Shown: piece by piece, positions 1,205-15,235 of the stretch | How the letters are laid out: each line of letters begins with the position of its first letter | Numbering within the stretch: position 1 is the stretch's first letter | Origin: Pyrobaculum aerophilum str. IM2 | GTDB lineage: Archaea; Thermoproteota; Thermoprotei; Thermoproteales; Thermoproteaceae | Length of the DNA: 32,000 bases | Reading direction: 5' to 3' | Assembly: GCF_000007225.1 (NCBI RefSeq) | Contig: NC_003364.1 | Span: forward strand, 2,160,001-2,192,000 | The notes under the pieces: generated by a model | Databases searched by the model: none | Seen by the model: only the letters and a program-made list of their open reading frames with translations | Told to the model about the DNA's origin: nothing | Translations under genes and position numbers: made by a program

Positions 1205-3370
1205 ATGAAAAACGGCTGGACTTATTTCGTGCTTGCCGCCACAGTTCTCGTCTACGTTGTGTACATAGCCATGGCGGTGTGGACTTTTTACAACTTGCCC
1301 CCAATACCTGAGAGAGTGGTTACTAAGAGCGGTGAGTTGTTATTCACGGCGCAGGACATAATAGAGGGTAAGACGCTTGCTCAAAAATATGGTCTTTTAG
1401 ACTACGGCTCCTTCCTGGGATTCGGGGGGTATTTCGGCATTGATTACACCGCATATACCATGAAGTTTTTTGTAGATAAAATAGGACAGTTGAAAGGCAC
1501 TGCCCTGGCCTCAGAAATTAAACACCTCATGACGCCGCAGTTCTCTGCAAAAACCTCCTCTCTGTTTGCCCCAGCGGCAGGAGTCGCGGTGGTCAGCGAC
1601 GAGTTCGGCGCGGCTTATAAACAGGCTGTTGACTTCTACAAACAGCTATTTGGGCCTAAGGCTGAGGAGATAGGCCTCAAGCCCAATTTAATCACAGACC
1701 CCGAACACGTCAGGAAGATAGTATCTTTCTTCACCTGGGGCGTTATGATCGCCATGGCTAATTACACGAACGGCTTCCCCTACATGCCTGGCATTCTCAC
1801 GCCTAATATACACGTCACTGTTGCCACTTGGGTCACTTTCTTTATACTACTGCTTGTCATTATGCCGCTGGCGGGGTGGATAATAATTAAATTTATAGAC
1901 TACTGGAAAGAGCCGAGGATAACCGTTGATCTCCCGCCGCCTTCTAAAGAACAGAGGCTTGCCCTGCTCGGGTTTGTTCTGGCAGTGTTGGGCTTGTCCA
2001 TTCAAGGCCTCCTCGGGGGCTACCTCATGCACAAATACACAGAGCCCTCAACGCTATACGGCATTTCGGGGATAAACAACGTACTGCCCTTCAACGTGGC
2101 CAGGGCGCTCCACTACAATTTGGCCCTACTGTGGATAGCCGTCTCCTGGGTCTCATTCGCCTTGTTCGTCTTGCCGTATTTAGGAGTTAAGCTGTCTAAA
2201 GGCAAAGTCCTCGCAATTTTAGGCGCCGGGGCCTTTACCGCCCTGGGGATACTCCTCGGCGTTTGGTCCTCCTACTTACAGCTACTGCCAGATCCTCTGT
2301 GGTTCATAATAGGGTCGCAGGGCAGGCCGGTAATTAGCCAAGGCACTCTGTGGCTGTTGCTTATTGCCGCTTTGCTTTCCTACCTCTCGGTAACTGTGTG
2401 GAGAGCCTCTAAGACCTCCCCCGAGCCCATACAGCCGTTAGTCAAAATCCTGTCTATTGCGCTGGCGGGCACTGCCTTCGGCGCGTTTATGGGCGCACTG
2501 CCCGTGGTGACGCCGTGGTGGCACTTCACAATTGACGAGTACTTCCGGTGGATAATAATACACTCATTTGTAGAGGGCTTTTGGCCCGCCATTGTAATTC
2601 CTATACTGTTAATACTCTTAGTAATCGCGGGGATGGTGCCGCCGAAAATGGCCGTCGCCGCGGCGGGGCTAGACGCCACTCTTGAAATAGTCACGGGCAT
2701 GATCGGCACAGCCCACCACTACTACTGGGGCGGCCAGCCCACACTGTGGATGTACGTAGGCGCCGTGATGTCCACTTTAGAAGTGCTCCCAATAGGCTTT
2801 CTCATTGCATACGCTGTGGTTTTATGGAAGAGGGGCGAGTATAAGACAGAGCTTCAAAAGACGTTGCTCACCTTCGTCTTAGTGGCAGCCTTTGGAGGAG
2901 CCATAGGCGTAGTGGCCTTCGGCGCTGGTCTCATAAACATGCCGGTGGTTAACTATTATCTTCACGGAAGCCAGGCCACTATGGTCCACGCCCATCTCGC
3001 CATGCCAATGGCATACGGCGTGCCCACCATGTTGATGTGGACCGTGGCCTTCGCCCTCGCGGGGGCCTTCGGCGCAGTTCAACTGCGCAGATTGAGAATG
3101 GCGGTTGTGATAATGGCGGTTGGGTTCTACTTACAAGTCACCTTATCGCTTATGTTATTAATGACTAATCAGTTTGTAACCACGACGCAAGTTGGCTACT
3201 GGGCCTCCAAGGCCATCTTCGCCCCCGACGGCACGCCGGCGTTTTGGTCAAGGCAGGATATTCAGATGTATGTGTGGCTGAGGATGATTGGAGACGTGGT
3301 GGCCGCAGTGGGCATAGGCACTTTCTTAATCTACATGTTAAGGGGATTGCCAAAGGTGTTTAAAACTTAA
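1205..3370 (+). CDS. norZ: Quinol-dependent nitric oxide reductase (qNOR, single-subunit NorZ/NorB type)
   Basis: The ORF encodes 721 aa. An N-terminal TM helix and a ~200-aa extracytoplasmic domain are fused to a 12-TM NorB core, which is the qNOR architecture. The catalytic signatures appear in the expected order: ALHYNLALLW (TM2 His), IIHSFVEGFW (FeB His plus Glu at +4), GTAHHYYWGG (TM7 HH) and MVHAHLAM (TM10 HxH). Confidence 0.9.
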   Translation: MKNGWTYFVLAATVLVYVVYIAMAVWTFYNLPPIPERVVTKSGELLFTAQDIIEGKTLAQKYGLLDYGSFLGFGGYFGIDYTAYTMKFFVDKIGQLKGTALASEIKHLMTPQFSAKTSSLFAPAAGVAVVSDEFGAAYKQAVDFYKQLFGPKAEEIGLKPNLITDPEHVRKIVSFFTWGVMIAMANYTNGFPYMPGILTPNIHVTVATWVTFFILLLVIMPLAGWIIIKFIDYWKEPRITVDLPPPSKEQRLALLGFVLAVLGLSIQGLLGGYLMHKYTEPSTLYGISGINNVLPFNVARALHYNLALLWIAVSWVSFALFVLPYLGVKLSKGKVLAILGAGAFTALGILLGVWSSYLQLLPDPLWFIIGSQGRPVISQGTLWLLLIAALLSYLSVTVWRASKTSPEPIQPLVKILSIALAGTAFGAFMGALPVVTPWWHFTIDEYFRWIIIHSFVEGFWPAIVIPILLILLVIAGMVPPKMAVAAAGLDATLEIVTGMIGTAHHYYWGGQPTLWMYVGAVMSTLEVLPIGFLIAYAVVLWKRGEYKTELQKTLLTFVLVAAFGGAIGVVAFGAGLINMPVVNYYLHGSQATMVHAHLAMPMAYGVPTMLMWTVAFALAGAFGAVQLRRLRMAVVIMAVGFYLQVTLSLMLLMTNQFVTTTQVGYWASKAIFAPDGTPAFWSRQDIQMYVWLRMIGDVVAAVGIGTFLIYMLRGLPKVFKT

Positions 3371-3447: not shown

Positions 3448-3912
3448 ATGAAATATCTTGTTCTATATTTAAAGCCTTGTAGTAAAATGCCCCGCGACGC
3501 CTATGCCTATCTCGGTTTTCAAATTAACAACGGCAAGGTAAAACACTTAGTGGCCACGTCGAGGGGGCTCGAAACGGTTACCTCAAGATGTGAAGAATGT
3601 ATATTTTATAAACTGGCCTCTTCCTCATACGTATACGGCCAGCCCGCCATCGTAGGGGGGAAGTTAAAGGTAATTGTGTCTGACAACCGCGCCGTCAGGA
3701 GGCTGATTTCACAACACCTCCCTCAGGTTGTTAAAGTCGTGGAGATGCGCCATACGGGGTTAATAATTACGGACAGACAGAGGGAGGTGCTCCTCAGCCT
3801 CGCCAACGGCCATAATTTGACCACAGTGGCGAGGCAGAACAACGTGTCAAAGGTGGCCGTCTATAAAATGTTTAAAACAGCGCTGAGAAAACTCTCACTT
3901 ATCCTAGCTTAA
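3448..3912 (+). CDS. Small transcription regulator with a C-terminal LuxR/GerE (sigma-70 region 4-like) HTH and N-terminal Cys residues
   Basis: The ORF encodes 154 aa. The C-terminus ITDRQREVLLSLANGHNLTTVARQNNVSKVAVYKMFKTALRKLSL fits the L-T-x-R-(Q/E)-x-x-V-L...G...I-A...V-S...V HTH pattern. A CEEC (CxxC) motif lies upstream. An AT-rich TATA region at about 3418-3435 precedes the ATG. Confidence 0.6.
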   Translation: MKYLVLYLKPCSKMPRDAYAYLGFQINNGKVKHLVATSRGLETVTSRCEECIFYKLASSSYVYGQPAIVGGKLKVIVSDNRAVRRLISQHLPQVVKVVEMRHTGLIITDRQREVLLSLANGHNLTTVARQNNVSKVAVYKMFKTALRKLSLILA

Positions 3913-4227
3913 AATTTCAACAACTTTTTTAAGAGCTCTTTTTACAAGTTTACAAGCTGCCGATTTAGATATGCCGAGCCCCTGAGCGACGGCCTCCAGC
4001 CCTCCATTAGAGAAGAAGATGAGAGCGGCGCGTTGCCGGGGCGTCAAGCGCGGGTTTCTCCACCTCTTTACCACTGCCTTCACCCGCCGCCTTCTTACGT
4101 ATTTTTTCACGGCGTTGTTGGCCACCACGGTGAAGACAATAAAGCCGTCTCTTATTTCAGGCATTTTAACCAAAGCGGTGTTTTTCAACAACTCCGACAA
4201 GATACAAGAGGAACAATATATTTTCAC
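3904..4227 (-). CDS. Small transcription regulator with a C-terminal LuxR/GerE-like HTH (paralogous fold to 3448..3912)
   Basis: The ORF encodes 107 aa from a GTG start at 4227. The C-terminus LTPRQRAALIFFSNGGLEAVAQGLGISKSAACKLVKRALKKVVEIL is a LuxR-type HTH. The N-terminus has a CSSC (CxxC) motif. A TATA-like CTATATTAAAC sits about 25 nt upstream on the minus strand. The gene is convergent with 3448..3912, with a 9-nt overlap. Confidence 0.6.
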   Translation of the reverse strand: MKIYCSSCILSELLKNTALVKMPEIRDGFIVFTVVANNAVKKYVRRRRVKAVVKRWRNPRLTPRQRAALIFFSNGGLEAVAQGLGISKSAACKLVKRALKKVVEILS

Positions 4228-4454: not shown

Positions 4455-5033
4455 ATGTTCGGCGTTGTAATGAGTATAGTGGCGGCACTGGCGCTGGGAT
4501 TTGGCCTGTTCTGCCTGTGGAGATGCGTAAAAACAAAGGAGTTGGCGGATTTATTCGTCTCCATAGGGGCATTTGTGCTGGCCGCCCTCGCTCTGCTCTT
4601 AGCTACACAGGGACTTGCCGCTCTGCAGTCCCCGCTGGCCGCCCCGCTGGGCGCCCTAGTGCCTCTTTTAATATCTCTGGGGGTTGTGAAAATCGCCGCG
4701 GCTAAGTGGTGGAAGTGGTATGCCGTTTTTGTCCTAGTTGGGTTAATTGCGATATCAGTCGCCAGGACGGCGGTGTCCGTGGTGCATTCAATTGCCGGGC
4801 TTGTGATTGTCATCTTGCCTATATACGCCGTGTTGAAGAAAAAACTTCCGCCCCACTTCATAGGGGTGTCTATTGGAGGGGTTTTAATTGGAATAGGAGG
4901 CGTGGCCCTGGCCTCGGCGGTCATGGCTAGGCCGATACTGCCTCTAGAAACCGTGGTGGCGCTCCTCCCGTGGATACTGCTTTTAATGACTGTCTTCTAC
5001 GCCTATGGGTTCATCCTAGGGGTTAGGAAATGA
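4455..5033 (+). CDS. Integral membrane protein (~7 TM), family unknown; first gene of a two-gene operon
   Basis: The ORF encodes 192 aa of almost entirely hydrophobic helices. Its stop overlaps the next start (ATGA at 5030-5033). An alternative start at ATG 4470 (MSIVAAL) fits the TATA-like GTAAATTATACA just upstream better. Confidence 0.65.
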   Translation: MFGVVMSIVAALALGFGLFCLWRCVKTKELADLFVSIGAFVLAALALLLATQGLAALQSPLAAPLGALVPLLISLGVVKIAAAKWWKWYAVFVLVGLIAISVARTAVSVVHSIAGLVIVILPIYAVLKKKLPPHFIGVSIGGVLIGIGGVALASAVMARPILPLETVVALLPWILLLMTVFYAYGFILGVRK

Positions 5034-6370
5034 GAGAAATTAAACTCCTCCTGTTTTTCACCTTACCACTGCTCGCCTTTTTCGGGCTGTTGTCCGGCCC
5101 CCTGGCGGAGGCCGGGGTGAAAGAGGCGTTGAGCCGCTACCTATCAATAGGCCCCGGCGAGGAGGATTTCGCGGCGCGTGTTATTATGGCGTATCACATA
5201 GCCGCAGTGGTGGTAATGGCCGGGACGCTCTACTTAGCGGCCAAGTACGTAGACCACGAGCCGAACACTGGGAGAATTGCGGTAAACCTAGCCACGGCCG
5301 GGTGGCTTATAGCCGTGCCGTCAGACTTGGCGTTTGCCTATTTCGGCAGGAGCCCCTTGGCCCACGGCCTGTGGCTCGTGGGGCTGAGCTTAATGTTCGC
5401 CGCAGGCCTTGTATTCCTCTACTCCATTTCCCCCTGGAGGTTGAGCTGGAGGGAGAGGACTCTCGAGCGGGCTACTGCCTTCACAGTGGGCGCGACGCTT
5501 TTAATTGCAGTAATTATGGGGGCGATATACGCCGCTCACCTCGGCTTTGATGAAAACGTAAAGATATACATACTGGAGGAGCACTCCACAAGGGAGTACC
5601 GGGGGCTCGCCCCGGCCTCCACGCCGTTGCAACTCTTAATCTCAGGCCATGCCCATGCCGCCGTGGCTCTGTGGGCGGCTGCTGTAATGTTTATAGGAAT
5701 GAAGTGGGCCCGGATGGACAACTGGAGGCCTAAGTTGTATAAAATTACTTTGGCGCTAACGGCAATAGGGGCTTTAATTACATTAATTGGAAGCGCCGCT
5801 GTGGCGGTGGTGAGGCCCATAGCCCATCAGATAATTTTCGGCGGTATTGGGCCGTTGCACCTGGCCCTCTTCTTCTTATGGCTGAGGCTCGGGGGCATGC
5901 TAAAAGGCGGGGGGTGGAGGGATCCCGTGAAGTTGGGCCTATTCCTAGTCCCCATTTGGACTGTGGTATTCGTCACGTCAACTGGGCCCATGCTCGCCTC
6001 TCAGACAAAAACCGTAAGGCTCGTCTGGCCTTTAGAGGACGAGATTGCGTACAACGTGGCGCATTGGCACATGTTGGCGTTTATCATAGCCTCTGCAATG
6101 TTTCTCCTCTATCTTTCGGAATTCGCCGGGCGCATCAGACAAATTTCGGGGTTTTTGTTGGCAATAGGGGGGACAATCGCGCTCGCGGGGGCTTTTATCT
6201 ACGAGCTGTCTCCCCTATTTGCCCGCAAAGCCGGCGTCCAGCTGGCGCCAGCCTCAGCCGCTTTAAAGAAGGGCATCCTCCCGGTTATAGACGCGGGGCT
6301 GGCCTTGTCTTTCGCCGCGTTTGCCCTCTTTGTACTGTGGTTATTTGTAAAAACTGTTAGAAAAGCCTAA
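5030..6370 (+). CDS. 12-TM histidine-rich membrane protein, family unknown; candidate divergent NorB/heme-copper-oxidase-like protein
   Basis: The ORF encodes 446 aa and is translationally coupled to 4455..5033. I count about 12 hydrophobic helices. The TM histidines are H56 (MAYHIAAV), H207/H209 (SGHAHAAVALW), H266/H277 and H345/H347 (VAHWHMLAF). The coding call is strong. The functional call is an inference, explained in the findings. Confidence 0.7.
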   Translation: MREIKLLLFFTLPLLAFFGLLSGPLAEAGVKEALSRYLSIGPGEEDFAARVIMAYHIAAVVVMAGTLYLAAKYVDHEPNTGRIAVNLATAGWLIAVPSDLAFAYFGRSPLAHGLWLVGLSLMFAAGLVFLYSISPWRLSWRERTLERATAFTVGATLLIAVIMGAIYAAHLGFDENVKIYILEEHSTREYRGLAPASTPLQLLISGHAHAAVALWAAAVMFIGMKWARMDNWRPKLYKITLALTAIGALITLIGSAAVAVVRPIAHQIIFGGIGPLHLALFFLWLRLGGMLKGGGWRDPVKLGLFLVPIWTVVFVTSTGPMLASQTKTVRLVWPLEDEIAYNVAHWHMLAFIIASAMFLLYLSEFAGRIRQISGFLLAIGGTIALAGAFIYELSPLFARKAGVQLAPASAALKKGILPVIDAGLALSFAAFALFVLWLFVKTVRKA

Positions 6371-6797
6371 ACCCTTTTTTCACCTCTTTTTTCACCCTCT
6401 CCACTAGCGCGTCGGCCCAGTCTTGAGGCGTGGCGTAGTGGCCGTCCACCAAGCCGAGGCTAGTCAACGCGTTTAAGTGGATGGAGTAATACGGACATTT
6501 TAAACACTCAGTTTCGCAAACCTCTGGTATATACACGCAGTGCTTCTCGGTCAGGATGAGAAGGGGCCTTTTAAGAAGCTGAAAAGCGCCGTCTACTGCC
6601 TCCATGGGGATATAAATACAGGGCTCTCCCAGCCCCAAGCGCTGAAGTTTATTAAGCCTGCGGTAGACGGAGCTGAGGGGCAGGCCCAGTACAAAACTAA
6701 TTTGTTTAGGTTTAAGCCTAGCCGAGAGGCACAGCAGTTTTACGTCCTCGGCGGATAAAGAGGCGAGGATGAAACGGGGGACGATTTTTATACACAC
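6357..6797 (-). CDS. Transcription regulator with an N-terminal LuxR/GerE-like HTH and a C-terminal C-x6-C-x3-C-x2-C cluster
   Basis: The ORF encodes 146 aa from a GTG start at 6797. A TATA box (TATTTAAAA on the minus strand, plus-strand coordinates 6817-6825) lies about 24 nt upstream. The HTH is LSAEDVKLLCLSARLKPKQISFVLGLPLSSVYRRLNKLQRLGL. The Cys cluster is HCVYIPEVCETECLKCPYY (C87, C94, C98, C101; nt 6495-6539). Confidence 0.65.
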   Translation of the reverse strand: MCIKIVPRFILASLSAEDVKLLCLSARLKPKQISFVLGLPLSSVYRRLNKLQRLGLGEPCIYIPMEAVDGAFQLLKRPLLILTEKHCVYIPEVCETECLKCPYYSIHLNALTSLGLVDGHYATPQDWADALVERVKKEVKKGFRLF

Positions 6798-6843: not shown

Positions 6844-7422
6844 TTACTCCCCCGCCTCGAATTCCTCGTCAAATAGCCTTTGTAACAAGTTTACTATATG
6901 TCTATAAGGGCTTTTAGACTCCTCCACGCATTTTTTAAATTTGGGGAACCAGGGCTTTATAAAACGTCTATAGAAATCGCGCCTCACTTGCGCCGAGGCT
7001 CCCTCGGCCTCTGAGGTGGCCGCTAGGAATTCCAACATAACGGGGAGGTAGTCCGGCAGCTCCCTCCTGACGTCCATGGTGAAGCCCAGCGCTTTGTAGT
7101 AAGTGAGTATTTGGTGCATGTAAAGCCCCCTTTCTCTGCTGTCCTCCCCCAGGGCGTAGTAGCCTCCATAAGGGGGACATCTGGGGGCTAGTTCAAACAT
7201 CTCCACTCTGTGAGCCTCAATACTCCCATCATCCGCCTCTTGGAAGAAGTCTCTGAGCTCCGACAGCCCGAGCGCCTCGGCTAATTTCAACACCTCCTCG
7301 CGTTTAGAGTAAACCTCTTTGGGATTGTCGAAAAGCCTGGCGGAGATCACGTAAAGAACTCTTAAGACATTCACGCGCATACTCTGCCCCATATTTAAAA
7401 ATATCGACGGCGGTAAATGCAA
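6844..7422 (-). CDS. narJ: Nitrate reductase assembly chaperone NarJ (TorD/NarJ family)
   Basis: The ORF encodes 192 aa. FELAPRCPPYGGYYALGEDSRERGLYMHQILTYYKALGFTM..ELPDYLPVMLEFLA is the typical NarJ/TorD core. The gene is divergent from narG. The start is uncertain, with in-frame alternatives at 7392 (ATG), 7380 (ATG) and 7374 (GTG). Confidence 0.8.
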   Translation of the reverse strand: MHLPPSIFLNMGQSMRVNVLRVLYVISARLFDNPKEVYSKREEVLKLAEALGLSELRDFFQEADDGSIEAHRVEMFELAPRCPPYGGYYALGEDSRERGLYMHQILTYYKALGFTMDVRRELPDYLPVMLEFLAATSEAEGASAQVRRDFYRRFIKPWFPKFKKCVEESKSPYRHIVNLLQRLFDEEFEAGE

Positions 7423-7485: not shown

Positions 7486-10400
7486 ATGCTTAAAACAACT
7501 AGGCGGCGGATGTTAGCCGGCGTTGCTACTATAAGCGCGGCAGCTTGGGTAATGGCGTTGGCCCAGAATTTGCAATATTTACAGCCGCTGGCGCAGTTTG
7601 TAAACACGAGGCTTCAATACCCTGACAGGTCGTGGGAGGAGCTCTACCGCCGCCGCTGGCAGTACGACAAAGTGGCCAGGTCTACACACGGCGTTAATTG
7701 CACCGGCTCTTGCTCGTGGAATGTGTACGTCAAGGACGGCCTTATAGTGTGGGAGCTACAGGCCACGGACTACCCGGACATCTCGCCGGACATACCCAAT
7801 TACGAGCCCAGGGGATGCCCGAGGGGGGCCAGTTTTTCGTGGTACGTATACTCGCCCTTGAGGGTGAAATATCCCTACGTCAGAGGGGTACTCATAGACA
7901 TGTACCGGAGGTTTAAACAAGAGACCGGCGATCCAGTGGAGGCGTGGCGCCGCATTGTGGAGGATCCCGCCAATCGCGCGGCCTATCAAAAGGCAAGGGG
8001 GAAGGCCGGGTGGGCCAGGGTCACTTGGGACGAGGCCCTTGAGCTGATATCCGCGGCGTTGATATATACAATTAAAAAGTACGGCCCCGACAGAATCTAC
8101 GGCTTCACCCCCATTCCCGCCATGTCCCCCGTGAGTTACGCCTCAGGGGCGAGGTTTATTGAGCTAATCGGCGGGGCAATGGGATCGTTTTACGACTGGT
8201 ACGCCGACCTTCCCCCGGCCAGCCCTCAGATGTGGGGCGAGCAGACAGACGTCCCTGAAAGCGCCGACTGGTACCACGCCCAGTATATGATCGTGTGGGG
8301 GACTAATTTGCCAATGACTAGGACGCCCGACGCGCCTATGTACACACAGGCTAGATATAGGGGGGCGAAGGTAGTTGTAGTCAGCCCGGATTACAGCGAG
8401 CACGTCAAATTTGCCGACTTATGGCTCCCGGCATTGCCCGGCACAGACGCCGCACTGGGCTTGGCCATGGCGCACGTGGCTTTAAAAGAGTTTTACGTGG
8501 ACAAGCAGTTCAAATGCCTGAGGGAATACGCGAGGAGGTATACCGACCTCCCCTTCCTTGTTATACTAGAGCCCGCTGGAGACGGCACATACCTACAGGG
8601 GAGGTTCCTTCGGGCTTCAGACGTACCGGAGCTTAAGGATAAGGTGGGCGGAAACCCGGAGTGGAAAACAGTTGTATTGCAGAGCGACGGCACTTTGGCG
8701 GCTCCCTACGGCTCTATAGGCTTTAGATGGGATGGGAGCGGGAAGTGGAATTTAGAGCTGAAAGGAATTACGGCGAGGGGCGAGGGCGATATAGACCCTG
8801 TGCTTTCTGTAATGGAGGTGGGGAAGTATGAAAAAGTGCCGGTGAAGTTCTTCGCCATGGACTTCGACGTGAAGAGTACGGTGAGGGAAGTCCCCGCGAT
8901 TAAAATTGGCGATAAATACGTCACTACTGTATTCGACTTATTGGCGGCGCATTTAGGAGTAAAGAGAGGCGACTTGGGAGGCGATTACCCAGCTGATTAC
9001 AACGACCCCAAGCCCTTCACTCCCGCGTGGCAGGAGTCTATAACAAATATCTCGCGCGACCTAGCCATAAGAGTTGCCAGGGAGTTTATGAGCACTGCCA
9101 TTTACTCTAAGCCTGTTTACGGCAAGCCGGGCGATCCCCCGTTCTTTGGAGACGACGCCACGCCTTGTGGGGGCAGAGCTATGATATTCGTAGGTCCTGG
9201 GATTAACCACTGGTATCACGCAGATTTAATATACCGCTCAGTCTTATTATTAGTACTGCTGGGCGCCACCCAGGGCAAGAACGGCGGCGGCTGGGCCCAT
9301 TACGTGGGGCAGGAGAAAATAAGGACTCTCATCGGGTGGTCCACAATAGCCTTTGCGCTTGACTGGATAAGGCCGCCGAGGCTACAAAACTCCCCCAGCT
9401 ACTGGTACGTCCACACCGACCAATGGCGTTACGACCCGGTCACCACTAAATTATACGCCGCCACCTGGGCGAAGAAGTGGGGCGATATTCACGAAATGGA
9501 CGCCAATGTAATTGCCGTGAGGCTTGGCTGGTTGCCCTTCTACCCGTCGCTTAATGTAAACCCGCTTGAGCTAGGCGACAAGCTAGTGAGCGAGGCTAAG
9601 GCTCAAGGCGTCCCCGACGCGCAATTAGGCCAGTACGTGGCGAGGAGAGTGGCGCAGATGTTGAAAAACGGCGAGATTAAGCTGGCAATAGAAGACCCCG
9701 ACGCTCCTGAGAATTGGCCAAGGGTGTTGTTCGTCTGGAGGGCAAATCTGCTGGGCTCCTCCTCTAAGGGCCATGAATACTTCCTTAAACACTTGCTGGG
9801 CACTGACAACAACGTAATGAATAGGGAATACGCTGTGGAGGAGGGATTAGTTAAAGAGGTGAATATTAGAAAGCCGGCGCCTGAGGGCAAGCTGGACTTA
9901 TTAGTTGTGTTAGACTTCAGAATGGCAACGTCAGCGGTCTATGCGGACGTAGTACTCCCCGCGGCGACGTGGTATGAGAAATACGACTTATCCATGACAG
10001 ATCTGCACACGTTTATACATCCCTTTACGCCCGCTGTGGATCCGCCGTGGGAGGCAAAGGCCGATTGGGATATATTCAAGGAGCTCGCAAAGAAGTTCTC
10101 TGAGCTGGCTAGGAAATATCTGCCGCAAGAGGCGTATGACGTAGTGCTAACGGCTCTTCTCCACGACACGGCTCAAGAAATCGCCCAGCCGTTTGGCGAA
10201 GTGAAGGACTGGAAAAAGGGCGAGGTGGATCCCGTCCCCGGCAAGACTATGGCCGCTGTGTCTCTAGTGAGGAGGAGGTATTGGGACGTATACGACATGT
10301 ACATCACGCTGGGGCCGCTCGTAGTGACGATGGGTCTATCGACAAAGGGCATACCCGCGTTTAAACCCGTGGAGAGCTATAACTGGCTGAGGGAGATAAA

Positions 10401-11370
10401 CGGCTTGACAAGCGCTACGTCGCAATTCGTACAAGCGCAGTGCGCCAACGTAGGGGGATGCCCGAGCATTGAGAGGGATAAACAGGCGGCTGAGGCCATG
10501 CTGGCCATATCTCCTGAGTCAAACGGCGAGGTGGCCTATATGGCTTGGAGTAATTTGGAAAAAGTAGTGGGTCTTCCGTTAAAAGACCTCCCCGCTAAAG
10601 AGCACAGAATTATGTTTAACGATATCGTCGCCCAGCCGAGACGCGTGACTACCTCGCCTGTGTGGAACGGAATAGAGGCTCCCGGGAGGACTTACTCGCC
10701 ATTTACTGTAAACACAGAGAGGAAAGTGCCCTGGCGCACTCTGACAGGCCGCCAGCACTTCTACATCGACCACGAGTGGTTTAGAGAGCTGGGCGAGTCG
10801 CTTCCAGTATACAAGCGCCCGCTCGACCAAGTAATGGCCAAGTTAATTGCTGACGTTAATCTATCCGACTACTGGTACGATCCCGCCAAATATAGAGTGG
10901 AAACTCCCGGCGGCAAATACCTAGTCCTCCGCTATTTAACTCCACACGGCAAGTGGAATATACACTCTACGTATTGGGACAACCTAATTATGTTGACGTT
11001 ATTCCGCGGCGGGCAGGTGGTGTGGATTAACGACGAAGATGCTAAGTGGCTCGGCGTTAAAGATAACGACTGGATTGAGGTGTATAACGCCAACGGCGTT
11101 ATAGTGGCCAGAGTGGCCGTCAGTCCGAGAATTCCGCGGGGCACAGCCATTATGTACCACGCCCAAGAGAGGCATGTGTACGTCCCCATAAGCCCCAAGA
11201 CTGGCAAGAGGGCTGGAATTCACAACAGCGTCACTATAACTCACCTCAAGCCGACAAAAATGGTGGGCGGCTATGCGCAGTTGAGCTGGTCCTTTAATTA
11301 CTACGGCCCCACTGGCGTAAATAGAGACACTCTAGTAGTAGTAAGACCCGCCGGCAGGGTGAGGCTATGA
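7486..11370 (+). CDS. narG: Respiratory nitrate reductase catalytic subunit NarG with an N-terminal twin-arginine (Tat) signal, i.e. the outward-facing pNar type
   Basis: The track ORF starts at 7417. The ATG at 7486 instead gives MLKTTRRRMLAGVATISAAAWVMALAQ, a textbook Tat signal, and lies about 30 nt after the TATA box. HGVNCTGSCSWNVYVKDG is the H-x3-C-x3-C FS0 cluster motif of NarG. The size (~1294 aa) fits the molybdopterin oxidoreductase family. The stop overlaps the narH start (ATGA). Confidence 0.92.
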   Translation: MLKTTRRRMLAGVATISAAAWVMALAQNLQYLQPLAQFVNTRLQYPDRSWEELYRRRWQYDKVARSTHGVNCTGSCSWNVYVKDGLIVWELQATDYPDISPDIPNYEPRGCPRGASFSWYVYSPLRVKYPYVRGVLIDMYRRFKQETGDPVEAWRRIVEDPANRAAYQKARGKAGWARVTWDEALELISAALIYTIKKYGPDRIYGFTPIPAMSPVSYASGARFIELIGGAMGSFYDWYADLPPASPQMWGEQTDVPESADWYHAQYMIVWGTNLPMTRTPDAPMYTQARYRGAKVVVVSPDYSEHVKFADLWLPALPGTDAALGLAMAHVALKEFYVDKQFKCLREYARRYTDLPFLVILEPAGDGTYLQGRFLRASDVPELKDKVGGNPEWKTVVLQSDGTLAAPYGSIGFRWDGSGKWNLELKGITARGEGDIDPVLSVMEVGKYEKVPVKFFAMDFDVKSTVREVPAIKIGDKYVTTVFDLLAAHLGVKRGDLGGDYPADYNDPKPFTPAWQESITNISRDLAIRVAREFMSTAIYSKPVYGKPGDPPFFGDDATPCGGRAMIFVGPGINHWYHADLIYRSVLLLVLLGATQGKNGGGWAHYVGQEKIRTLIGWSTIAFALDWIRPPRLQNSPSYWYVHTDQWRYDPVTTKLYAATWAKKWGDIHEMDANVIAVRLGWLPFYPSLNVNPLELGDKLVSEAKAQGVPDAQLGQYVARRVAQMLKNGEIKLAIEDPDAPENWPRVLFVWRANLLGSSSKGHEYFLKHLLGTDNNVMNREYAVEEGLVKEVNIRKPAPEGKLDLLVVLDFRMATSAVYADVVLPAATWYEKYDLSMTDLHTFIHPFTPAVDPPWEAKADWDIFKELAKKFSELARKYLPQEAYDVVLTALLHDTAQEIAQPFGEVKDWKKGEVDPVPGKTMAAVSLVRRRYWDVYDMYITLGPLVVTMGLSTKGIPAFKPVESYNWLREINGLTSATSQFVQAQCANVGGCPSIERDKQAAEAMLAISPESNGEVAYMAWSNLEKVVGLPLKDLPAKEHRIMFNDIVAQPRRVTTSPVWNGIEAPGRTYSPFTVNTERKVPWRTLTGRQHFYIDHEWFRELGESLPVYKRPLDQVMAKLIADVNLSDYWYDPAKYRVETPGGKYLVLRYLTPHGKWNIHSTYWDNLIMLTLFRGGQVVWINDEDAKWLGVKDNDWIEVYNANGVIVARVAVSPRIPRGTAIMYHAQERHVYVPISPKTGKRAGIHNSVTITHLKPTKMVGGYAQLSWSFNYYGPTGVNRDTLVVVRPAGRVRL

Positions 11371-12788
11371 ACGTCCGGGCCCAGATAACAATGGCGATGA
11401 ATTTAGACAAGTGCATTGGTTGCCATACTTGTTCCGTAACGTGTAAAAACGTGTGGACTAACCGCGCCGGCGCTGAGTATATGTGGTGGAACAACGTCGA
11501 GACAAGGCCCGGCCCAGGCTACCCGCGGCAGTGGGAAGACCAGAATAAGTACAACGGCGGCTGGGCCCTCGACGGAGGAAAGCTGAAGCTCAAGATAGAA
11601 CTGACTAAAAACTACAAGCCGCCCTCTTTAAAAGACTACTACGAGCCGTGGACTTACGACTATGAAGCGCTCTTCTCAGACAAGCAGACAGATCAACAGC
11701 CAGTCGCCAGGCCGATCTCGCTTATAACAGACGAGCCCATGGACGTCGCCTACGGCCCCAATTGGAACGACGACTTGGCGGGCACTGACTATATATTGGA
11801 GGACCCCAATCTAGACGGGTTGCAAAGGGAGATCTACGCCCAGTTTAAAGACGTGTTTATGATGTACCTGCCCAGGATATGTAACCACTGCCTCAACCCG
11901 TCTTGTCTTGCGGCATGTCCGAGAAAGGCTATATACAAGAGGGAGGAGGACGGGATTGTCCTAATAGATCAAAACAGGTGCAGGGGGTATAGGTATTGCG
12001 TCGCCGCGTGTCCATACAAGAAAGTGTACTACAACTGGAAGACCGGCAAGTCGGAGAAGTGTATCCTCTGCTATCCGAGCGTCGAGGCGGGCCAGCCCAC
12101 TGTCTGCTCTCTGACGTGTGTGGGGAAGATTAGGTACATGGGAGTACTGCTTTACGACGCCGATAAGGTGTTAGACGTGGCGGCCACCCCGGACCCGGCC
12201 CAATTAGTTAGGAGGTTTATAGACGAGGTGTTGCTGGACCCGTTCGATCCCGCCGTAATAGAAGCCGCTAGGAAAAACGGCATCCCCGACTACTGGATCA
12301 CAGCGGCTCAGAGATCGCCGGTGTATAAAATTGTGAAGAAGTGGAAAGTGGGCTTTCCGCTACGCCCAGAGTTCAGGGTGTTGCCCATGGTGTTTTACGT
12401 GCCTCCGCTGAGCCCAGTGGTGACGACGTTTGAGAAGACCTACGGCGCACAGATCGCGGACATCTTCCCCAAGGTGTCTGAGCTGAGAATTCCCATTAAA
12501 TACCTGGCCAATATGTTCACCGGAGGCGACACGGCGTTAATCGAATCGGCGTTGAAGAAGCTCATAGCCGTGAGGATATACGAAAGGGCTAAAAACGTGG
12601 CTGAGCCCGGCCTAGCCGACAAGGCCAAGGCCGCCTTGGCGGAGGCCGGCCTCTCAGAGGCGGACGCGGAGGAGATGTACCGCCTATTTGCCTTAGCTAG
12701 ATACGAGGACAGATTCGTAATACCCACTAATCCGAAGAGATACGCCGCGCAACCACAAATAATGCGCGGCACGGTGGGGTTGCCATGA
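11367..12788 (+). CDS. narH: Nitrate reductase Fe-S subunit NarH
   Basis: The ORF encodes 473 aa. It has four ferredoxin-type Cys groups: CIGCHTCSVTCK, CNHCLNPSCLAACP, CRGYRYCVAACP and CILCYP..CSLTCVGKIRY. It is coupled to its neighbours on both sides by ATGA overlaps. Confidence 0.92.
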   Translation: MNVRAQITMAMNLDKCIGCHTCSVTCKNVWTNRAGAEYMWWNNVETRPGPGYPRQWEDQNKYNGGWALDGGKLKLKIELTKNYKPPSLKDYYEPWTYDYEALFSDKQTDQQPVARPISLITDEPMDVAYGPNWNDDLAGTDYILEDPNLDGLQREIYAQFKDVFMMYLPRICNHCLNPSCLAACPRKAIYKREEDGIVLIDQNRCRGYRYCVAACPYKKVYYNWKTGKSEKCILCYPSVEAGQPTVCSLTCVGKIRYMGVLLYDADKVLDVAATPDPAQLVRRFIDEVLLDPFDPAVIEAARKNGIPDYWITAAQRSPVYKIVKKWKVGFPLRPEFRVLPMVFYVPPLSPVVTTFEKTYGAQIADIFPKVSELRIPIKYLANMFTGGDTALIESALKKLIAVRIYERAKNVAEPGLADKAKAALAEAGLSEADAEEMYRLFALARYEDRFVIPTNPKRYAAQPQIMRGTVGLP

Positions 12789-13708
12789 GGCGCGACGTCG
12801 TCCTCCCGGGCATCGCCCTGGCGATCTCGCTACTACTGGCGTTTATGGGCGTGGTAGTGGTAACTGCCCAGCAGGGCGTAGTGACTGTTAAATACATTGC
12901 AGGCCCATTGCCGGCCGATCCGTTTTCCAACCTCTGGCCCGCCCCAGTGGAAGTGCCGCTGACTTCGCAGACGCTAGTCTATCCACTGCCCGCGGCTACT
13001 GAGACGAGGTCGATAGGCGTATCCGCCGTGTACAACGGGACGCACATAGCGTTCCTACTGACTTGGAGCGACAATACGCAAGACGTGGCGACGCCTGGAG
13101 GACTCGACGTCTTCCCAGACGCCGTGGCCGTGCAGTTCCCAGTGTCAAAGGCGCAGTTGCCGTATATATGTATGGGCACGGTGGACAACCCCGTGAATAT
13201 AATCTACTGGAGGGCTGGATTCGGGGCGGAGAATTTAGTGGCCGGCGCTGGCTACGGGCTAAATCCACAGCAGAGGGAGGCGCTGGGCTTACAAGCAACG
13301 CCGGCGTCTCCAGTAGAGCTACTGCCCGCCTCGGCGCAAGTTATAAACGCCACTGCGGCGTATAAAGACGGCAAGTGGTACGTCGTTATTATAAGGCCGC
13401 TCGGCTCTGTCCACCCGTTAATGGCCTCTCTGGCCGAGGGCTTTAGCGCCGCATTCGCGACATGGGACGGCGCAAAGGGCGAGATAGGAGGCTTAAAAGC
13501 GACAAGCGGCTGGGTCACTTTCCAGCTGGAGAAACCCGTTGCCCCCACAGCGCCGGCAACGCAAACTGTGAGAGAGACTGTGACTGTTACGCAGACAGTA
13601 ACCGCTACACAATTAGTGGAGACGACGCCTACTTGGGCCTGGGCAGTCATTGGGGTCTTGATAGCAGTAATAGCGTTGCTGGCAGGGCTGGCGCTGCGCC
13701 GTAAATAA
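12785..13708 (+). CDS. narM: NarM-like heme-b gamma subunit (EbdC/DdhC/SerC-type domain) with an N-terminal signal, a Thr/Val-rich stalk and a single C-terminal TM anchor
   Basis: The ORF encodes 307 aa. The N-terminus is a signal or anchor, MRRDVVLPGIALAISLLLAFMGVVVVTAQQ. The FPDAVAVQFPV segment is typical of the heme-b subunit of type II DMSO-reductase-family enzymes. The stalk is TQTVRETVTVTQTVTATQLVETT and the anchor is WAWAVIGVLIAVIALLAGLALRRK. It is not a NarI-type 5-TM diheme protein. Confidence 0.65.
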   Translation: MRRDVVLPGIALAISLLLAFMGVVVVTAQQGVVTVKYIAGPLPADPFSNLWPAPVEVPLTSQTLVYPLPAATETRSIGVSAVYNGTHIAFLLTWSDNTQDVATPGGLDVFPDAVAVQFPVSKAQLPYICMGTVDNPVNIIYWRAGFGAENLVAGAGYGLNPQQREALGLQATPASPVELLPASAQVINATAAYKDGKWYVVIIRPLGSVHPLMASLAEGFSAAFATWDGAKGEIGGLKATSGWVTFQLEKPVAPTAPATQTVRETVTVTQTVTATQLVETTPTWAWAVIGVLIAVIALLAGLALRRK

Positions 13709-14407
13709 ATGGATTTTTTCCTACTCCTCTTATTCCTAGAATTTTTACTGAACCGTACGTTGAACCGTCTTTGGATTTTTATTCCCCAAAACCCCTTTAC
13801 TCACGCCTTATTTCTCGGAATTCAATGGGCTGGGTACGTCTCCATGCTGGCCCTTTACGTCTACTCGTTTCTGCTCATTGGGAGCTGGGGGAAGAGAGGA
13901 GTGCCGCTGGGCGTGTTGGCCCTTGTTTTAACCGCATTAGATCTGTCAAAAGACTACTTGGGCTTCGGCGTCAAGGCGCTTTTCCTACTTCCCCTGATTT
14001 TCAGCGTGTTTTTTAAACACAGAGTGGCCATCGCCTACTCTCTTTACTACTTAGCCGAGGGGGTTATCAAACTCACCAAGCCTTTATACTTGGCCCAGCT
14101 GGAGTGGGCCTGGGCGTTACTGCCGCTTGTGGGCGGGTGGAGGTTTAGAAAAATCGCCGTTATTCTCGCCGCGCTGTTATTAGTATTAATAGCGGCCTCG
14201 CCTTATTACACAGGGATGATATTCGTCTTCGGAATGGGGCTTAGCCAAGTTTTCCTACTGCCGGCGGCGCTCTTTCTGTCCCTGTCTTCCAAGTCGAAAT
14301 ACCCCCTTTACTCCCTCCTGGTCGGCCCCTCGGTGCAACTGTCAGTACATTATATAACCCTAGCCGTTGCTACGGGATATGTTAATAGTGGGAAACGCCA
14401 GGGGTGA
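13709..14407 (+). CDS. Polytopic membrane protein (~7 TM), unknown; apparent fourth gene of the narGH-narM operon
   Basis: The ORF encodes 232 aa. Its ATG is the nucleotide directly after the narM stop. The sequence is hydrophobic throughout, and I recognise no family. Confidence 0.6.
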   Translation: MDFFLLLLFLEFLLNRTLNRLWIFIPQNPFTHALFLGIQWAGYVSMLALYVYSFLLIGSWGKRGVPLGVLALVLTALDLSKDYLGFGVKALFLLPLIFSVFFKHRVAIAYSLYYLAEGVIKLTKPLYLAQLEWAWALLPLVGGWRFRKIAVILAALLLVLIAASPYYTGMIFVFGMGLSQVFLLPAALFLSLSSKSKYPLYSLLVGPSVQLSVHYITLAVATGYVNSGKRQG

Positions 14408-15200: not shown

Positions 15201-15217
15201 CCGCATTTCTTAAATTA
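15193..15217 (+). promoter_or_regulatory. Promoter of the 15236 gene: 12-bp perfect palindrome GCGGTTAACCGC overlapping AACCGCATT, followed by the TATA box TTAAATTA
   Basis: GCGGTTAACCGC lies at 15193-15204 and contains the stop codon of the upstream gene. AACCGCATT lies at 15199-15207 and TTAAATTA at 15210-15217. The ATG is at 15236. Confidence 0.55.
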
Positions 15218-15235
15218 CGCAGCTTAATCTCTGCC

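What the first reader, a model, noticed from the sequence alone, without database searches (positions are those of the whole stretch)
4455..6370. Unassigned 12-TM protein whose histidine positions mirror NorB/heme-copper oxidase subunit I, co-translated with a 7-TM partner
**Context.** ORFs 4455-5033 (192 aa, ~7 TM) and 5030-6370 (446 aa, ~12 TM) overlap by ATGA, so they form one operon. The operon lies between qNOR and the nar operon and is divergent from a small HTH gene. I cannot assign either protein to a family.

**Histidine positions in the 446-aa protein.**
- H56 in TM2 (MAYHIAAV).
- H207/H209 in TM6 (SGHAHAAVALW).
- H266/H277 in TM8.
- H345/H347 in TM10 (VAHWHMLAF).

**Comparison with known NORs.**
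- The genuine qNOR in this same window shows the same order of motifs in its core: ALHYNLALLW, IIHSFVEGFW, TAHHYYWGG, VHAHLAM.
- As I recall the P. aeruginosa cNOR structure, the NorB ligands are His60 and His349 (heme b), His347 (heme b3), and His207, His258, His259 and Glu211 (FeB).
- That is nearly identical numbering in a 12-TM protein of similar size.

**Differences.**
- The adjacent HH pair of TM7 is missing.
- The Glu four residues after the TM6 His is missing.
- Instead there is an HxH in TM6 and two His on one helical face (i, i+11) in TM8.

**Interpretation.** This could be a very divergent HCO/NOR-superfamily member with a rewired non-heme metal site, or it could be convergence. Pyrobaculum-type denitrifiers are, to my recollection, reported to reduce N2O without a recognisable nosZ. 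The outward-facing Nar here also lacks an obvious quinol-oxidising partner. The pair is therefore a candidate for a missing respiratory activity.
Basis: partly seen in the sequence, partly recalled or inferred. Interest (0 to 1): 0.8.

Follow-up and report, generated by a model that had tools for sequence, protein, structure and literature searches.

The report
Unannotated oxidase-like 12-helix haem protein family
Two overlapping genes in the Pyrobaculum aerophilum denitrification island encode a membrane protein pair, and the large subunit founds a widespread, unannotated family that has the fold of respiratory haem-copper oxidase/NO reductase subunit I but a re-wired set of invariant histidines and a still-visible three-fold internal repeat.

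Summary
ORFs 4455-5033 (7 TM, PAE3607) and 5030-6370 (12 TM) overlap by ATGA and lie between qNOR and narGH.

The 446-aa protein matches no Pfam, NCBIfam or PDB sequence. It belongs to a family with relatives in at least 570 species genomes, mostly Anaerolineae, plus Pyrobaculum and Thermofilaceae.

- **Conserved residues.** H56, H112, H207, H209, H266, H345, H347 and E338 are 96-100% conserved. H277 is not.
- **Fold.** A confident AlphaFold model (pLDDT 93) matches only haem-copper oxidase subunit I chains (cbb3 CcoN, aa3, NorB) over its full length (TM about 0.55).
- **Ligand positions.** Histidine spacing and outer-side depth mirror the qNOR in the same window. The TM7 His-His pair, the NOR Glu and the oxidase Tyr are absent.
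- **Internal repeat.** The protein is a sequence-detectable 3 x 4-TM triplication (E 4e-11). qNOR shows no such signal.
- **Bacterial operon.** It carries a haem O synthase (50 of 58 loci), an FGE-like lipoprotein and the 7-TM partner.

My best reading is a haem-binding, oxidase-like oxidoreductase with a novel TM6/TM8 histidine metal site. The substrate is unknown. The missing N2O reductase idea and the Nar-partner idea remain unsupported.

The parts
4455..5033 (+). 7-TM partner subunit (PAE3607, 192 aa). Predicted N-out/C-in. Its single invariant His, H111 (codon 4785-4787), lies near the outer face.
   Evidence: ORF and ATGA overlap. Named PAE3607. Model pLDDT 90.6 with 7 helices. H111, G115, P122 and G148/149 invariant in 40 sequences. 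The same family sits at -1 and/or +3 of the 12-TM gene in 47 of 58 bacterial loci and in archaeal loci. No Pfam or NCBIfam match. Foldseek finds only generic 7-TM bundles.
5030..6370 (+). 12-TM protein of 446 aa, listed as 'hypothetical protein [Pyrobaculum aerophilum]'. HCO-subunit-I-like fold.
5033..5425 (+). Internal repeat unit 1 (TM1-TM4, residues 2-132). Carries R50, Y55, H56 (codon 5195-5197, TM2), Y104 and H112 (codon 5363-5365, outer start of TM4).
   Evidence: hhalign self-comparison: residues 45-295 against 198-446, probability 97%, E 4e-11; residues 3-138 against 299-443, E 3.6e-5. Conservation.
5462..5905 (+). Internal repeat unit 2 (TM5-TM8, residues 145-292). Carries H207 and H209 (codons 5648-5650 and 5654-5656, TM6) and H266 (codon 5825-5827, outer start of TM8).
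   Evidence: H209 aligns with H56 and H347, and H266 aligns with H112, in the repeat alignment.
5924..6364 (+). Internal repeat unit 3 (TM9-TM12, residues 299-445). Carries R330, E338 (codon 6041-6043), and H345-W346-H347 (codons 6062-6070, TM10).
3448..3912 (+). HTH regulator type A (154 aa) with Cys at positions 11, 48 and 51 in both the window protein and its Infirmifilum homologue. It accompanies the gene pair in Pyrobaculum and Infirmifilum.
   Evidence: 45% identity to the gene upstream of the pair in Infirmifilum lucidum. 51-64% identity to neighbours of the pair in two other Pyrobaculum loci. Weak HTH matches only.
3904..4227 (-). HTH_10-type regulator type B, divergent from the pair. 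It is 107 aa here against 152-158 aa in other genomes, so it is N-terminally shortened.
   Evidence: 43-49% identity to L006 8868-9344 and L008 11710-12168; the Thermofilaceae locus L007 has one directly upstream, divergent.

Best explanation
PAE3607 and the downstream 446-aa protein form a two-subunit integral-membrane metalloprotein.

**Architecture (shown)**
- The large subunit has the 12-helix architecture of haem-copper oxidase/NO reductase subunit I.
- It is built from three 4-TM repeats that are still detectable in sequence.
- Its N-terminus is cytoplasmic.
- All invariant polar residues lie in the outer third of the membrane.

**Cofactor assignment (inferred by analogy with HCOs)**
- H56 (TM2) and H347 (TM10) sandwich a low-spin haem.
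- H345 (TM10) carries a second haem.
- H207 and H209 (TM6) plus H266 (TM8) replace the canonical TM6-His plus TM7-His-His set as ligands of a non-haem metal. H112 and E338 may contribute to this site or to a further one.
- In bacteria the haem is probably haem O, made by the haem O synthase encoded two genes downstream.

**Activity (inferred)**
- The enzyme most likely reduces a small oxidant at the outer face, in the order NO, then O2, then N2O.
- Protons would come from outside, because no conserved polar residues line the cytoplasmic half. That would make it non-pumping, like cNOR and qNOR.
- Electrons would come from quinol or from periplasmic cytochromes.
- The 7-TM protein is an accessory subunit. 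In bacteria an FGE-like lipoprotein forms an outer cap.

**In Pyrobaculum**
The module is embedded in the nor-nar(-nir) island and probably controlled by its two Cys-bearing HTH regulators.
For: **Fold**
- Model pLDDT 93.3, pTM 0.92.
- Eight of the ten best PDB matches are HCO subunit I chains: cbb3 CcoN 8smr_E and 3mk7 (TM 0.54-0.56, 436-446 aligned columns, probability 1.0), aa3 3fye_C, NorB 4xyd_A, bo3 and bovine CcO.
- The transporters listed among the top 50 score TM 0.11-0.20.

**Ligands**
- Seven His plus E338 are 96-100% conserved in about 165 sequences.
- TM2-to-TM6 and TM6-to-TM10 His spacing is 151 and 138 residues, against 150 and 142 in the window's own qNOR.
- The HxH on TM10 is as in HCOs.

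**Topology**
- The conserved His lie 3-12 residues from the outer helix ends.
- Positive-inside count: 14.3 K+R in 74 positions on the N-terminal side against 9.2 in 117 on the other side.

**Haem link**
- The UbiA gene at +2 is haem O synthase: TIGR01473 217.9 bits against a cut-off of 210.3.
- It is present in 50 of 58 bacterial loci with enough downstream DNA.
- It is also adjacent in P. ferrireducens, at 241 bits.

**Respiratory flavour**
- Crp/Fnr-type regulators occur in 25 loci and 6-7-haem cytochromes c in 7 loci.
- Two members are fused to an extracytoplasmic FGE-like or beta-propeller domain, each preceded by an extra hydrophobic segment after TM12: a clear 13th TM helix in the beta-propeller fusion, a short signal-like one in the FGE fusion.
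- In Pyrobaculum the pair is next to qNOR in four genomes, each differently arranged (window).
Against: - No sequence-level link to HCOs. There is no COX1 hit at E <= 1 and none in 37 members. A profile search of the PDB finds no HCO. hhalign against a qNOR profile gives probability about 1%, and its best local alignment is shifted by four helices.
- The defining TM7 His-His pair, the NOR Glu and the oxidase Tyr are absent.
- I could not inspect coordinates, so the ligand assignment rests on spacing, depth and the full-length Foldseek alignment, not on superposition.
- No subunit-II-like partner is present.
- Thermofilaceae carry the pair without denitrification genes or haem O synthase within 8-10 kb.
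- There is no haem O synthase in this window.
- The substrate is pure inference.
Confidence: 0.5

Rival explanations
1. A haem O-handling protein rather than a reductase. It would be a triplicated analogue of haem A synthase (CtaA/COX15), in which each 4-TM unit binds a haem between His on its helices 2 and 4. It would modify, store or deliver the haem O made by the adjacent haem O synthase.
For: - The 4-TM repeats carry His on helix 2 and helix 4 in units 1 and 2 (H56/H112 and H209/H266). This is the pattern described for haem A synthase, with His on TM II, IV, VI and VIII in a duplicated 4-TM unit (PMC12808453).
- The family is tightly linked to haem O synthase, as ctaA-ctaB often is (my own knowledge).
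Against: - There is no PF02628 hit.
- The HAS E-x-x-H-R motif is absent from the sequence.
- The helix-2 and helix-4 His differ in depth by about 9 residues (12 against 3 from the outer end), which is awkward for bis-His ligation within one unit.
- The best structural matches are HCO subunit I over all 12 helices, and no CtaA chain is in the top 50.
- Multihaem cytochromes, a Crp/Fnr regulator and a periplasmic lipoprotein partner are unusual for a cofactor-biosynthesis enzyme.
- In archaea the pair occurs without haem O synthase nearby.
Confidence: 0.2
2. An NO- or metal-stress membrane protein working like NnrS, or a convergent histidine-rich metal-binding, sensing or transport protein. On this view the oxidase-like fold reflects only the 3 x 4-TM architecture.
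For: - It is a 12-TM, His-rich protein sitting in denitrification clusters beside nor and nir, as NnrS does in proteobacteria (my own knowledge).
- Dedicated regulators sit next to it.
- It has no sequence relation to HCOs.
- It is present in fermentative anaerobic lineages.
Against: - There is no PF05940 (NnrS) hit for the query at E <= 1 or for 37 members at E <= 0.01.
- Transporter folds among the top 50 matches score TM 0.11-0.20.
- The haem O synthase linkage and the HCO-like register of the His are not explained by a simple metal transporter.
Confidence: 0.15
3. One reading: the pair is the missing N2O reductase of nosZ-less Pyrobaculum, or the quinol-oxidising partner of the outward-facing Nar.
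For: - A genome-trait survey scores P. aerophilum IM2 without nosZ, whereas P. calidifontis has it (PMC11052009).
- There is no nosZ or nosD in the window or in the other archaeal loci.
- In P. ferrireducens, which has a nosZ-type gene (nos_propeller domain) with nosD and nosL genes beside the pair, both genes of the pair are frameshifted.
- P. calidifontis did not appear among the homologues, although its qNOR is in the same database.
- A putative HCO-derived N2O reductase family has been proposed before (PMC11214002).
Against: - The anti-correlation rests on three genomes.
- Most family members are in Anaerolineae and Thermofilaceae, in non-denitrification contexts.
- The conserved His all lie on one side of the membrane, which rules out a NarI-like transmembrane di-haem quinol dehydrogenase.
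- The nar operon has its own EB_dh haem-b subunit and conserved downstream genes.
Confidence: 0.08

Closest known systems
Haem-copper oxidoreductase superfamily subunit I (cbb3 CcoN, cNOR/qNOR NorB, aa3/bo3 subunit I; Pfam PF00115)
   Same: - 12-TM fold, with full-length Foldseek matches only to these chains.
- N-in topology, with metal-ligand His in the outer third of TM2, TM6 and TM10.
- HxH on TM10, and His spacing almost identical to the neighbouring qNOR.
- As I recall, P. stutzeri CcoN uses His60, 207, 257/258, 345 and 347. I did not check this here.
- Operon link to haem O synthase.
- No conserved cytoplasmic-side polar channel, as in cNOR and qNOR.
   Different: - No detectable sequence or profile similarity.
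- The TM7 His-His pair is absent. Murali et al. 2024 state that the active-site histidines are completely conserved in every HCO family except gNOR, where one is replaced by Asp (PMC11214002).
- There is no NOR Glu and no cross-link Tyr.
- It has extra invariant His on TM6 (HxH), TM4 and TM8.
- It has a sequence-detectable 3 x 4-TM repeat (E 4e-11) that the qNOR profile lacks.
- Its partners are a 7-TM protein and an FGE-like lipoprotein rather than a cupredoxin or cytochrome c subunit II.
Haem A synthase (CtaA/COX15, Pfam PF02628)
   Same: - Tandem 4-TM units with conserved His on helices 2 and 4 near the outer face.
- Encoded next to haem O synthase (PMC12808453).
   Different: - Three units rather than two (or one), and the third unit lacks the helix-4 His.
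- No PF02628 hit.
- No E-x-x-H-R motif.
- Overall helix packing matches HCO subunit I, and no CtaA chain is among the top 50 structural matches.
NnrS (Pfam PF05940), a haem- and copper-containing 12-TM protein of denitrification clusters
   Same: - 12 TM helices, histidine-rich, encoded among nor, nir and nar genes with local regulators. Function is linked to NO (my own knowledge).
- The context here is shown.
   Different: - No PF05940 match.
- Structural comparison could not be run, because the AlphaFold-database libraries were unavailable.

Membership tests
Haem-copper oxidoreductase superfamily, subunit I | Sequence or profile match to COX1 (PF00115) or to NorB/qNOR profiles | tested here: not met
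   No Pfam hit at E <= 1. None in 37 members. The family profile against PDB sequences finds no HCO. hhalign against an 18-sequence qNOR/HCO profile gives probability about 1%.
Haem-copper oxidoreductase superfamily, subunit I | 12-TM subunit-I fold | tested here: met
   Model pLDDT 93.3, pTM 0.92. Foldseek top hits are CcoN, CoxI, NorB and CyoB, with TM 0.45-0.56, probability 0.99-1.0 and 436-556 aligned columns. The transporters listed among the top 50 score TM 0.11-0.20.
Haem-copper oxidoreductase superfamily, subunit I | Invariant His on TM2 and HxH on TM10 (haem ligands), in the outer third of an N-in protein | tested here: met
   H56 171/171, H345 166/166, H347 164/166. Depth of 10-12 residues from the outer helix ends. 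Positive-inside count. Actual haem ligation and residue superposition were not testable.
Haem-copper oxidoreductase superfamily, subunit I | TM6 His ligand of CuB/FeB at HCO-like spacing | tested here: met
   H207 164/165. Spacing TM2-to-TM6 is 151 and TM6-to-TM10 is 138, against 150 and 142 in the window qNOR.
Haem-copper oxidoreductase superfamily, subunit I | Adjacent His-His pair at the outer end of TM7 (CuB/FeB ligands) | tested here: not met
   No conserved His at positions 250-263 in about 160 sequences. The nearest invariant His is H266, one turn into TM8, at +59 from the TM6 His against +51 in qNOR.
Haem-copper oxidoreductase superfamily, subunit I | NOR-type Glu four residues after the TM6 His, or the oxidase cross-link Tyr | tested here: not met
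   Position 211 is Met in 81% (Ala in archaea). Position 213 is Ala or Thr. There is no conserved Tyr on TM6 or TM7.
Haem-copper oxidoreductase superfamily, subunit I | Contains two haems plus a non-haem metal | not testable with these tools
   Needs purification with haem and metal analysis, or a cofactor-aware structure prediction.
Haem-copper oxidoreductase superfamily, subunit I | Genomic association with haem O synthase | tested here: met
   TIGR01473 above its cut-off. Present in 50 of 58 bacterial loci. Adjacent in P. ferrireducens. Not present in this window or in the other archaeal loci.
Haem A synthase (CtaA/COX15) | PF02628 match and E-x-x-H-R motif on helix 2 | tested here: not met
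   No Pfam hit. The helix-2 motifs are RxxxxYH, GHxH and GHWH. The HAS motif is taken from PMC12808453.
Haem A synthase (CtaA/COX15) | Tandem 4-TM units with His on helices 2 and 4 | tested here: met
   The hhalign self-alignment equates H56, H209 and H347, and equates H112 with H266. The third unit lacks the helix-4 His.
NnrS | PF05940 match | tested here: not met
   No hit for the query at E <= 1 or for 37 members at E <= 0.01.

The most novel reading that the evidence does not exclude
The family is a true deep relative of the haem-copper oxidase/NO reductase superfamily that still preserves, in sequence, the 4-TM triplication that created the 12-helix scaffold. It would use a previously unseen binuclear centre (a haem plus a metal held by the TM6 HxH and a TM8 His) to reduce a nitrogen oxide. 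In nosZ-less Pyrobaculum aerophilum that could be the long-sought N2O-reducing (or a second NO-reducing) activity.
Probability: 0.15. Interest if true: 0.95.

Novelty: new variant of a known kind. Interest (0 to 1): 0.8.

Why it matters
**Origin of the oxidase scaffold.** Haem-copper oxidases and NO reductases are central enzymes of aerobic respiration and denitrification. Their origin, and how their active site diversified, are long-standing questions. This family has the same 12-helix scaffold and the same histidine register on TM2, TM6 and TM10. It lacks the TM7 His pair that the cited review describes as conserved throughout the superfamily. It also retains a statistically clear three-fold internal repeat. 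That makes the idea that the scaffold arose by triplication of a 4-helix haem-binding module directly testable.

**Scale and blind spot.**
- The family is large (at least 570 species genomes) and has no Pfam or NCBIfam model. Its members seen here carry no source name or are called 'hypothetical protein'.
- It is therefore invisible to the Pfam/NCBIfam-style family searches run here, and probably to gene-marker surveys of N- and O-cycling.
- If it turns over NO, N2O or O2, budgets based on nor, nosZ and cox markers in anoxic Chloroflexota-rich habitats and in hot springs would need revisiting.

**Tractability.** The P. aerophilum pair, located inside the nor-nar island, offers a thermostable entry point for biochemistry.

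Tried and rejected
**Sequence and profile searches**
- Pfam, NCBIfam and PDB sequence searches gave nothing for either protein. The PDB profile search gave only chance hits.
- hhalign of the family against a qNOR/HCO profile, global and local, was not significant. The best local alignment was shifted by four helices, pairing the family's TM6 HxH with qNOR's TM10 HxH, so sequence cannot fix the register.

**Structure searches**
- No coordinates are exposed, so His-His distances and superposition on 3MK7 or 3O0R could not be measured.
- Transporter identity is rejected. MATE, CNT, APC, MurJ and similar chains score TM 0.11-0.20.
- COX3-like identity for the 7-TM partner is not supported. Only generic GPCR or rhodopsin bundles matched, with E > 0.08.

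**Partners and neighbours**
- The FGE-like partner is not a true formylglycine-generating enzyme. The representative sequence lacks the Cys pair that I recall binds copper in FGE (recollection; sequence read, not tested against a bona fide FGE).
- The c3 and c5 membrane proteins of the bacterial operon are unrelated to the 7-TM partner.
- The role as Nar quinol-oxidising partner is rejected. All conserved His lie on one membrane face, and the nar operon has its own EB_dh haem-b subunit.

**Literature**
- Ten full-text searches found no description of the family.
- The P. aerophilum transcriptome paper (Cozen et al. 2009) is not held, so expression could not be checked.

**Other**
- The hemerythrin/DUF438 fusion P0016 rests on a single 2.2-kb contig and may be chimeric.
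Full report
**1. The observation**

The window comes from Pyrobaculum aerophilum. The 446-aa product is 100% identical to a 'hypothetical protein [Pyrobaculum aerophilum]', and the 192-aa product is PAE3607.

- ORFs 4455-5033 and 5030-6370 are present on the + strand and share ATGA at 5030-5033.
- Upstream are a genuine qNOR (1205-3370; PF00115 plus PF22085; 2.7e-67 to PDB 3AYF), an HTH gene (3448-3912, +) and a divergent HTH_10-like gene (3904-4227, -).
- Downstream are a convergent winged-HTH gene (6357-6797, -), narJ (6844-7422, -), narG, narH and an EB_dh haem-b subunit.
The four qNOR motifs are real.

**2. A real, large and unannotated family**

- Neither protein matches Pfam or NCBIfam. 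The 446-aa protein also matches no PDB sequence.
- A word-indexed search found only 23 relatives.
- An exhaustive profile search found 280 cluster representatives, 201 of them at E <= 1e-10.
Most are Anaerolineae or other Chloroflexota. There are single examples in Calditrichota, Ignavibacteria, Neomarinimicrobiota, Aminicenantes and Clostridia. Among archaea it occurs in Pyrobaculum and Thermofilaceae.
- None of 37 full-length members hits a Pfam or NCBIfam family, apart from fused extra domains.

Conservation across 249 sequences aligned to the family profile:

| Residue | Conserved |
|---|---|
| H56 | 171/171 |
| H112 | 162/169 |
| H207 | 164/165 |
| H209 | 160/164 |
| H266 | 159/161 |
| H345 | 166/166 |
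| H347 | 164/166 |
| E338 | 164/166 |
| R50 | 164/169 |
| Y55 | 168/171 |
| Y104 | 162/170 |
| R330 | 155/168 |
| W346 | 159/166 |
| H277 | 23/157 (lineage-specific) |

**3. Fold**

- With a 37-sequence alignment, AlphaFold2 gave a confident model (pLDDT 93.3, pTM 0.92) with 12 TM helices.
- Foldseek against the PDB returned haem-copper oxidase subunit I chains for eight of the ten best matches:
  - cbb3 CcoN (8smr_E, 3mk7; TM 0.54-0.56, 436-446 aligned columns, probability 1.0)
  - aa3 subunit I (3fye_C)
  - cNOR NorB (4xyd_A)
  - bo3 and bovine CcO
- Transporters and other helical proteins in the list have TM 0.09-0.25.
- Alignments spanning almost the whole chain exclude a register shifted by four helices.
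- E-values are modest (about 1e-3) and identity is about 14%. This is fold-level evidence, not proof of homology.

**4. Topology and register**

- Loops on the side of the N- and C-termini carry 14.3 K+R in 74 positions. The other side carries 9.2 in 117 and is net acidic. The N-terminus is therefore cytoplasmic, as in HCO subunit I (established knowledge).
- All invariant polar residues lie within 3-12 residues of the outer helix ends: H56 on TM2, H112 on TM4, H207 and H209 on TM6, H266 on TM8, and E338, H345 and H347 on TM10.
- In the qNOR of this window the TM2, TM6, TM7 and TM10 histidines are residues 303, 453, 504/505 and 595/597. The spacings are 150, 51 and 142.
- The family has spacings of 151 (H56 to H207) and 138 (H207 to H345). 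H266 lies at +59, just across the short TM7-TM8 hairpin.
- There is no conserved His at the outer end of TM7. Position H207+4 is Met (81%) or Ala, never Glu or Tyr.
- No conserved polar residue lies in the cytoplasmic half. This argues against a conserved proton-uptake channel from inside.

**5. An internal triplication**

- hhalign of the family profile against itself aligns residues 45-295 with 198-446 (probability 97%, E 4e-11). It also aligns residues 3-138 with 299-443 (probability 71%, E 3.6e-5).
- The protein is therefore three 4-TM units: TM1-4, TM5-8 and TM9-12.
- H56, H209 and H347 are equivalent. H112 and H266 are equivalent. A54, H207 and H345 are equivalent.
- The same test on an 18-sequence qNOR/HCO profile finds no repeat (probability 0.2%).
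- HCO subunit I is known to have pseudo-three-fold helix packing, with TM2, TM6 and TM10 related by that symmetry (established structural knowledge). Here that symmetry is still written in the sequence.
- HxH motifs sit on two of the three central helices and a single His on the third. Residues i and i+2 of a helix face nearly opposite directions. Each HxH can therefore serve two neighbouring pockets, as H376 and H378 do in bovine oxidase (my own knowledge).

**6. Genomic context**

*Bacterial operon.* In 70 bacterial loci I called ORFs and clustered the neighbours. The conserved order is:

(Crp/Fnr regulator; 6-7-haem cytochromes c) - [7-TM] - 12-TM - FGE-sulfatase-like lipoprotein - UbiA - [7-TM] - further small membrane proteins.

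- The UbiA gene is haem O synthase: TIGR01473 at 217.9 bits against a cut-off of 210.3.
- Among the 58 loci with at least 2.5 kb downstream, haem O synthase is present in 50, the FGE-like gene in 48 and the 7-TM family in 47.
- No canonical HCO lies within 8 kb of any bacterial locus.
- The FGE-like protein has a lipoprotein signal. It appears to lack the copper-binding Cys pair of true FGE (recollection of the FGE motif, not tested here) but has invariant H113, E114, H150 and H264.
- Two family members are fused to an FGE-like or a beta-propeller domain, each preceded by an extra hydrophobic segment after TM12. This is a clear 13th TM helix in the beta-propeller fusion and a short, signal-like segment in the FGE fusion. 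It fits a C-in topology with an extracytoplasmic cap.

*Archaeal module.* In archaea the module is one or two paralogous HTH regulators plus the 7-TM and 12-TM genes.

| Genome | Position of the pair |
|---|---|
| P. aerophilum (window) | Between qNOR and narGH |
| P. oguniense | Between qNOR and narGH |
| A Pyrobaculum MAG | Between cd1 nirS and a narG fragment, EB_dh and qNOR |
| P. ferrireducens | Next to haem O synthase, qNOR and a nosZ-type gene with nosD and nosL; both genes of the pair frameshifted |
| Thermofilaceae | No denitrification genes within 8-10 kb |

**7. The partner**

- PAE3607 models confidently as a 7-helix bundle.
- It has one invariant His (H111) near the outer face.
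- It has no specific structural relative. Only generic GPCR or rhodopsin bundles matched.
- It is best treated as an accessory subunit of unknown role.

**8. Interpretation**

*Shown:*
- A conserved, widespread two-gene (in bacteria multi-gene) membrane module.
- An HCO-subunit-I-like 12-TM fold.
- Invariant outer-side His in the HCO register on TM2, TM6 and TM10.
- Absence of the TM7 His-His pair, the NOR Glu and the oxidase Tyr.
- A 3 x 4-TM sequence repeat.
- Operon linkage to haem O synthase.

*Inferred:*
- H56 and H347 bind a low-spin haem.
- H345 binds a second haem.
- H207, H209 and H266, possibly with H112 or E338, bind a non-haem metal or a third cofactor.
- The complex reduces a small oxidant at the outer face without pumping.
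- The substrate is not determined. NO is favoured by the Pyrobaculum context and the Crp/Fnr regulators. O2 scavenging is favoured by the distribution in anaerobes.

*Rivals:*
- **Haem A synthase-like haem O-handling protein.** It shares the His-on-helices-2-and-4 repeat logic (PMC12808453). It fits the fold match and the cytochrome and lipoprotein partners less well.
- **NnrS-like stress protein or convergent metal binder.**
It is backed only by an anecdotal anti-correlation with nosZ in three Pyrobaculum genomes.
It is contradicted by the one-sided His distribution and by the EB_dh subunit in the nar operon.

**9. Novelty**

- Murali et al. 2024 describe gNOR as the first HCO family to replace an active-site histidine (PMC11214002). 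A family that lacks both TM7 histidines and escapes the COX1 model lies outside every described HCO family.
- Ten full-text searches found no description of it.
- I class it as a new variant of a known kind (an HCO-like scaffold). Function is unknown, and the family is directly relevant to the origin of the scaffold.

Noticed in passing
L008 (Pyrobaculum ferrireducens CP003098.1) 9205-11140: Both genes of the pair look inactivated in this species. The 7-TM gene matches in two reading frames, and its annotated product has an unrelated C-terminus. The 12-TM gene is split into 88-aa and 379-aa ORFs. The locus sits beside haem O synthase, qNOR and a nosZ-type gene (nos_propeller domain) with nosD and nosL.
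   Followed up: partly
window 3448-3912 (+) and 3904-4227 (-): Two paralogous HTH regulators accompany the pair in Pyrobaculum. Type A has Cys at positions 11, 48 and 51 in the window protein and its Infirmifilum homologue. Each Thermofilaceae locus has one of the two types. The P. aerophilum type B copy is only 107 aa, against 152-158 aa elsewhere. The Cys triad could be a redox, NO or metal sensor.
   Followed up: partly
window 6357-6797 (-): A winged-HTH gene with a Cys-rich C-terminal half overlaps the 3' end of the 12-TM gene by 14 nt in convergent orientation. A 35%-identical homologue lies next to narJ in another Pyrobaculum locus (L006 4342-4779).
   Followed up: partly
window 12785-15946 (+): narGH is followed by an EB_dh-type haem-b subunit (12785-13708) and by ORFs with no family, including a 232-aa one. 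A comparable set (EB_dh subunit followed by a 231-aa family-less gene) occurs in L006 and (310- and 230-aa genes) in L009; homology between them was not tested. These genes are the more obvious candidates for the electron-entry module of the outward-facing Nar.
   Followed up: no
L089 821-1987 (protein P0016): A 388-aa protein joins an N-terminal DUF438 plus hemerythrin region to exactly the third 4-TM repeat (residues 301-444, 63% identity) of the family. It is seen on one 2.2-kb contig only, so it may be a real single-repeat fusion or an assembly chimera.
   Followed up: partly
bacterial loci, e.g. L012 9422-10360, L036 5330-6016, L033 6900-7718, L062 4549-6664: The bacterial operon also carries three further components. 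One is an FGE-sulfatase-like lipoprotein with invariant H113, E114, H150 and H264. The second is two families of small membrane proteins without annotation (c3 and c5, weakly related to each other). The third, in 7 loci, is tandem 6-7-haem cytochromes c.
   Followed up: partly
family alignment, query position 211 (window 5660-5662): Four residues after H207, where NORs have the FeB Glu and A/B-type oxidases the cross-link Tyr, 81% of the family (the bacterial H-L-H-I-M motif) has Met. The archaeal members have Ala. About half of the family has further His at positions 107 and 237.
   Followed up: no
window 15987-17122 (-) and 17199-20591 (+): An ABC-2 permease and ATPase pair lies beside three cytochrome c assembly-type genes (PF01578). 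There is no nosD or nosZ anywhere in the 32-kb window.
   Followed up: partly
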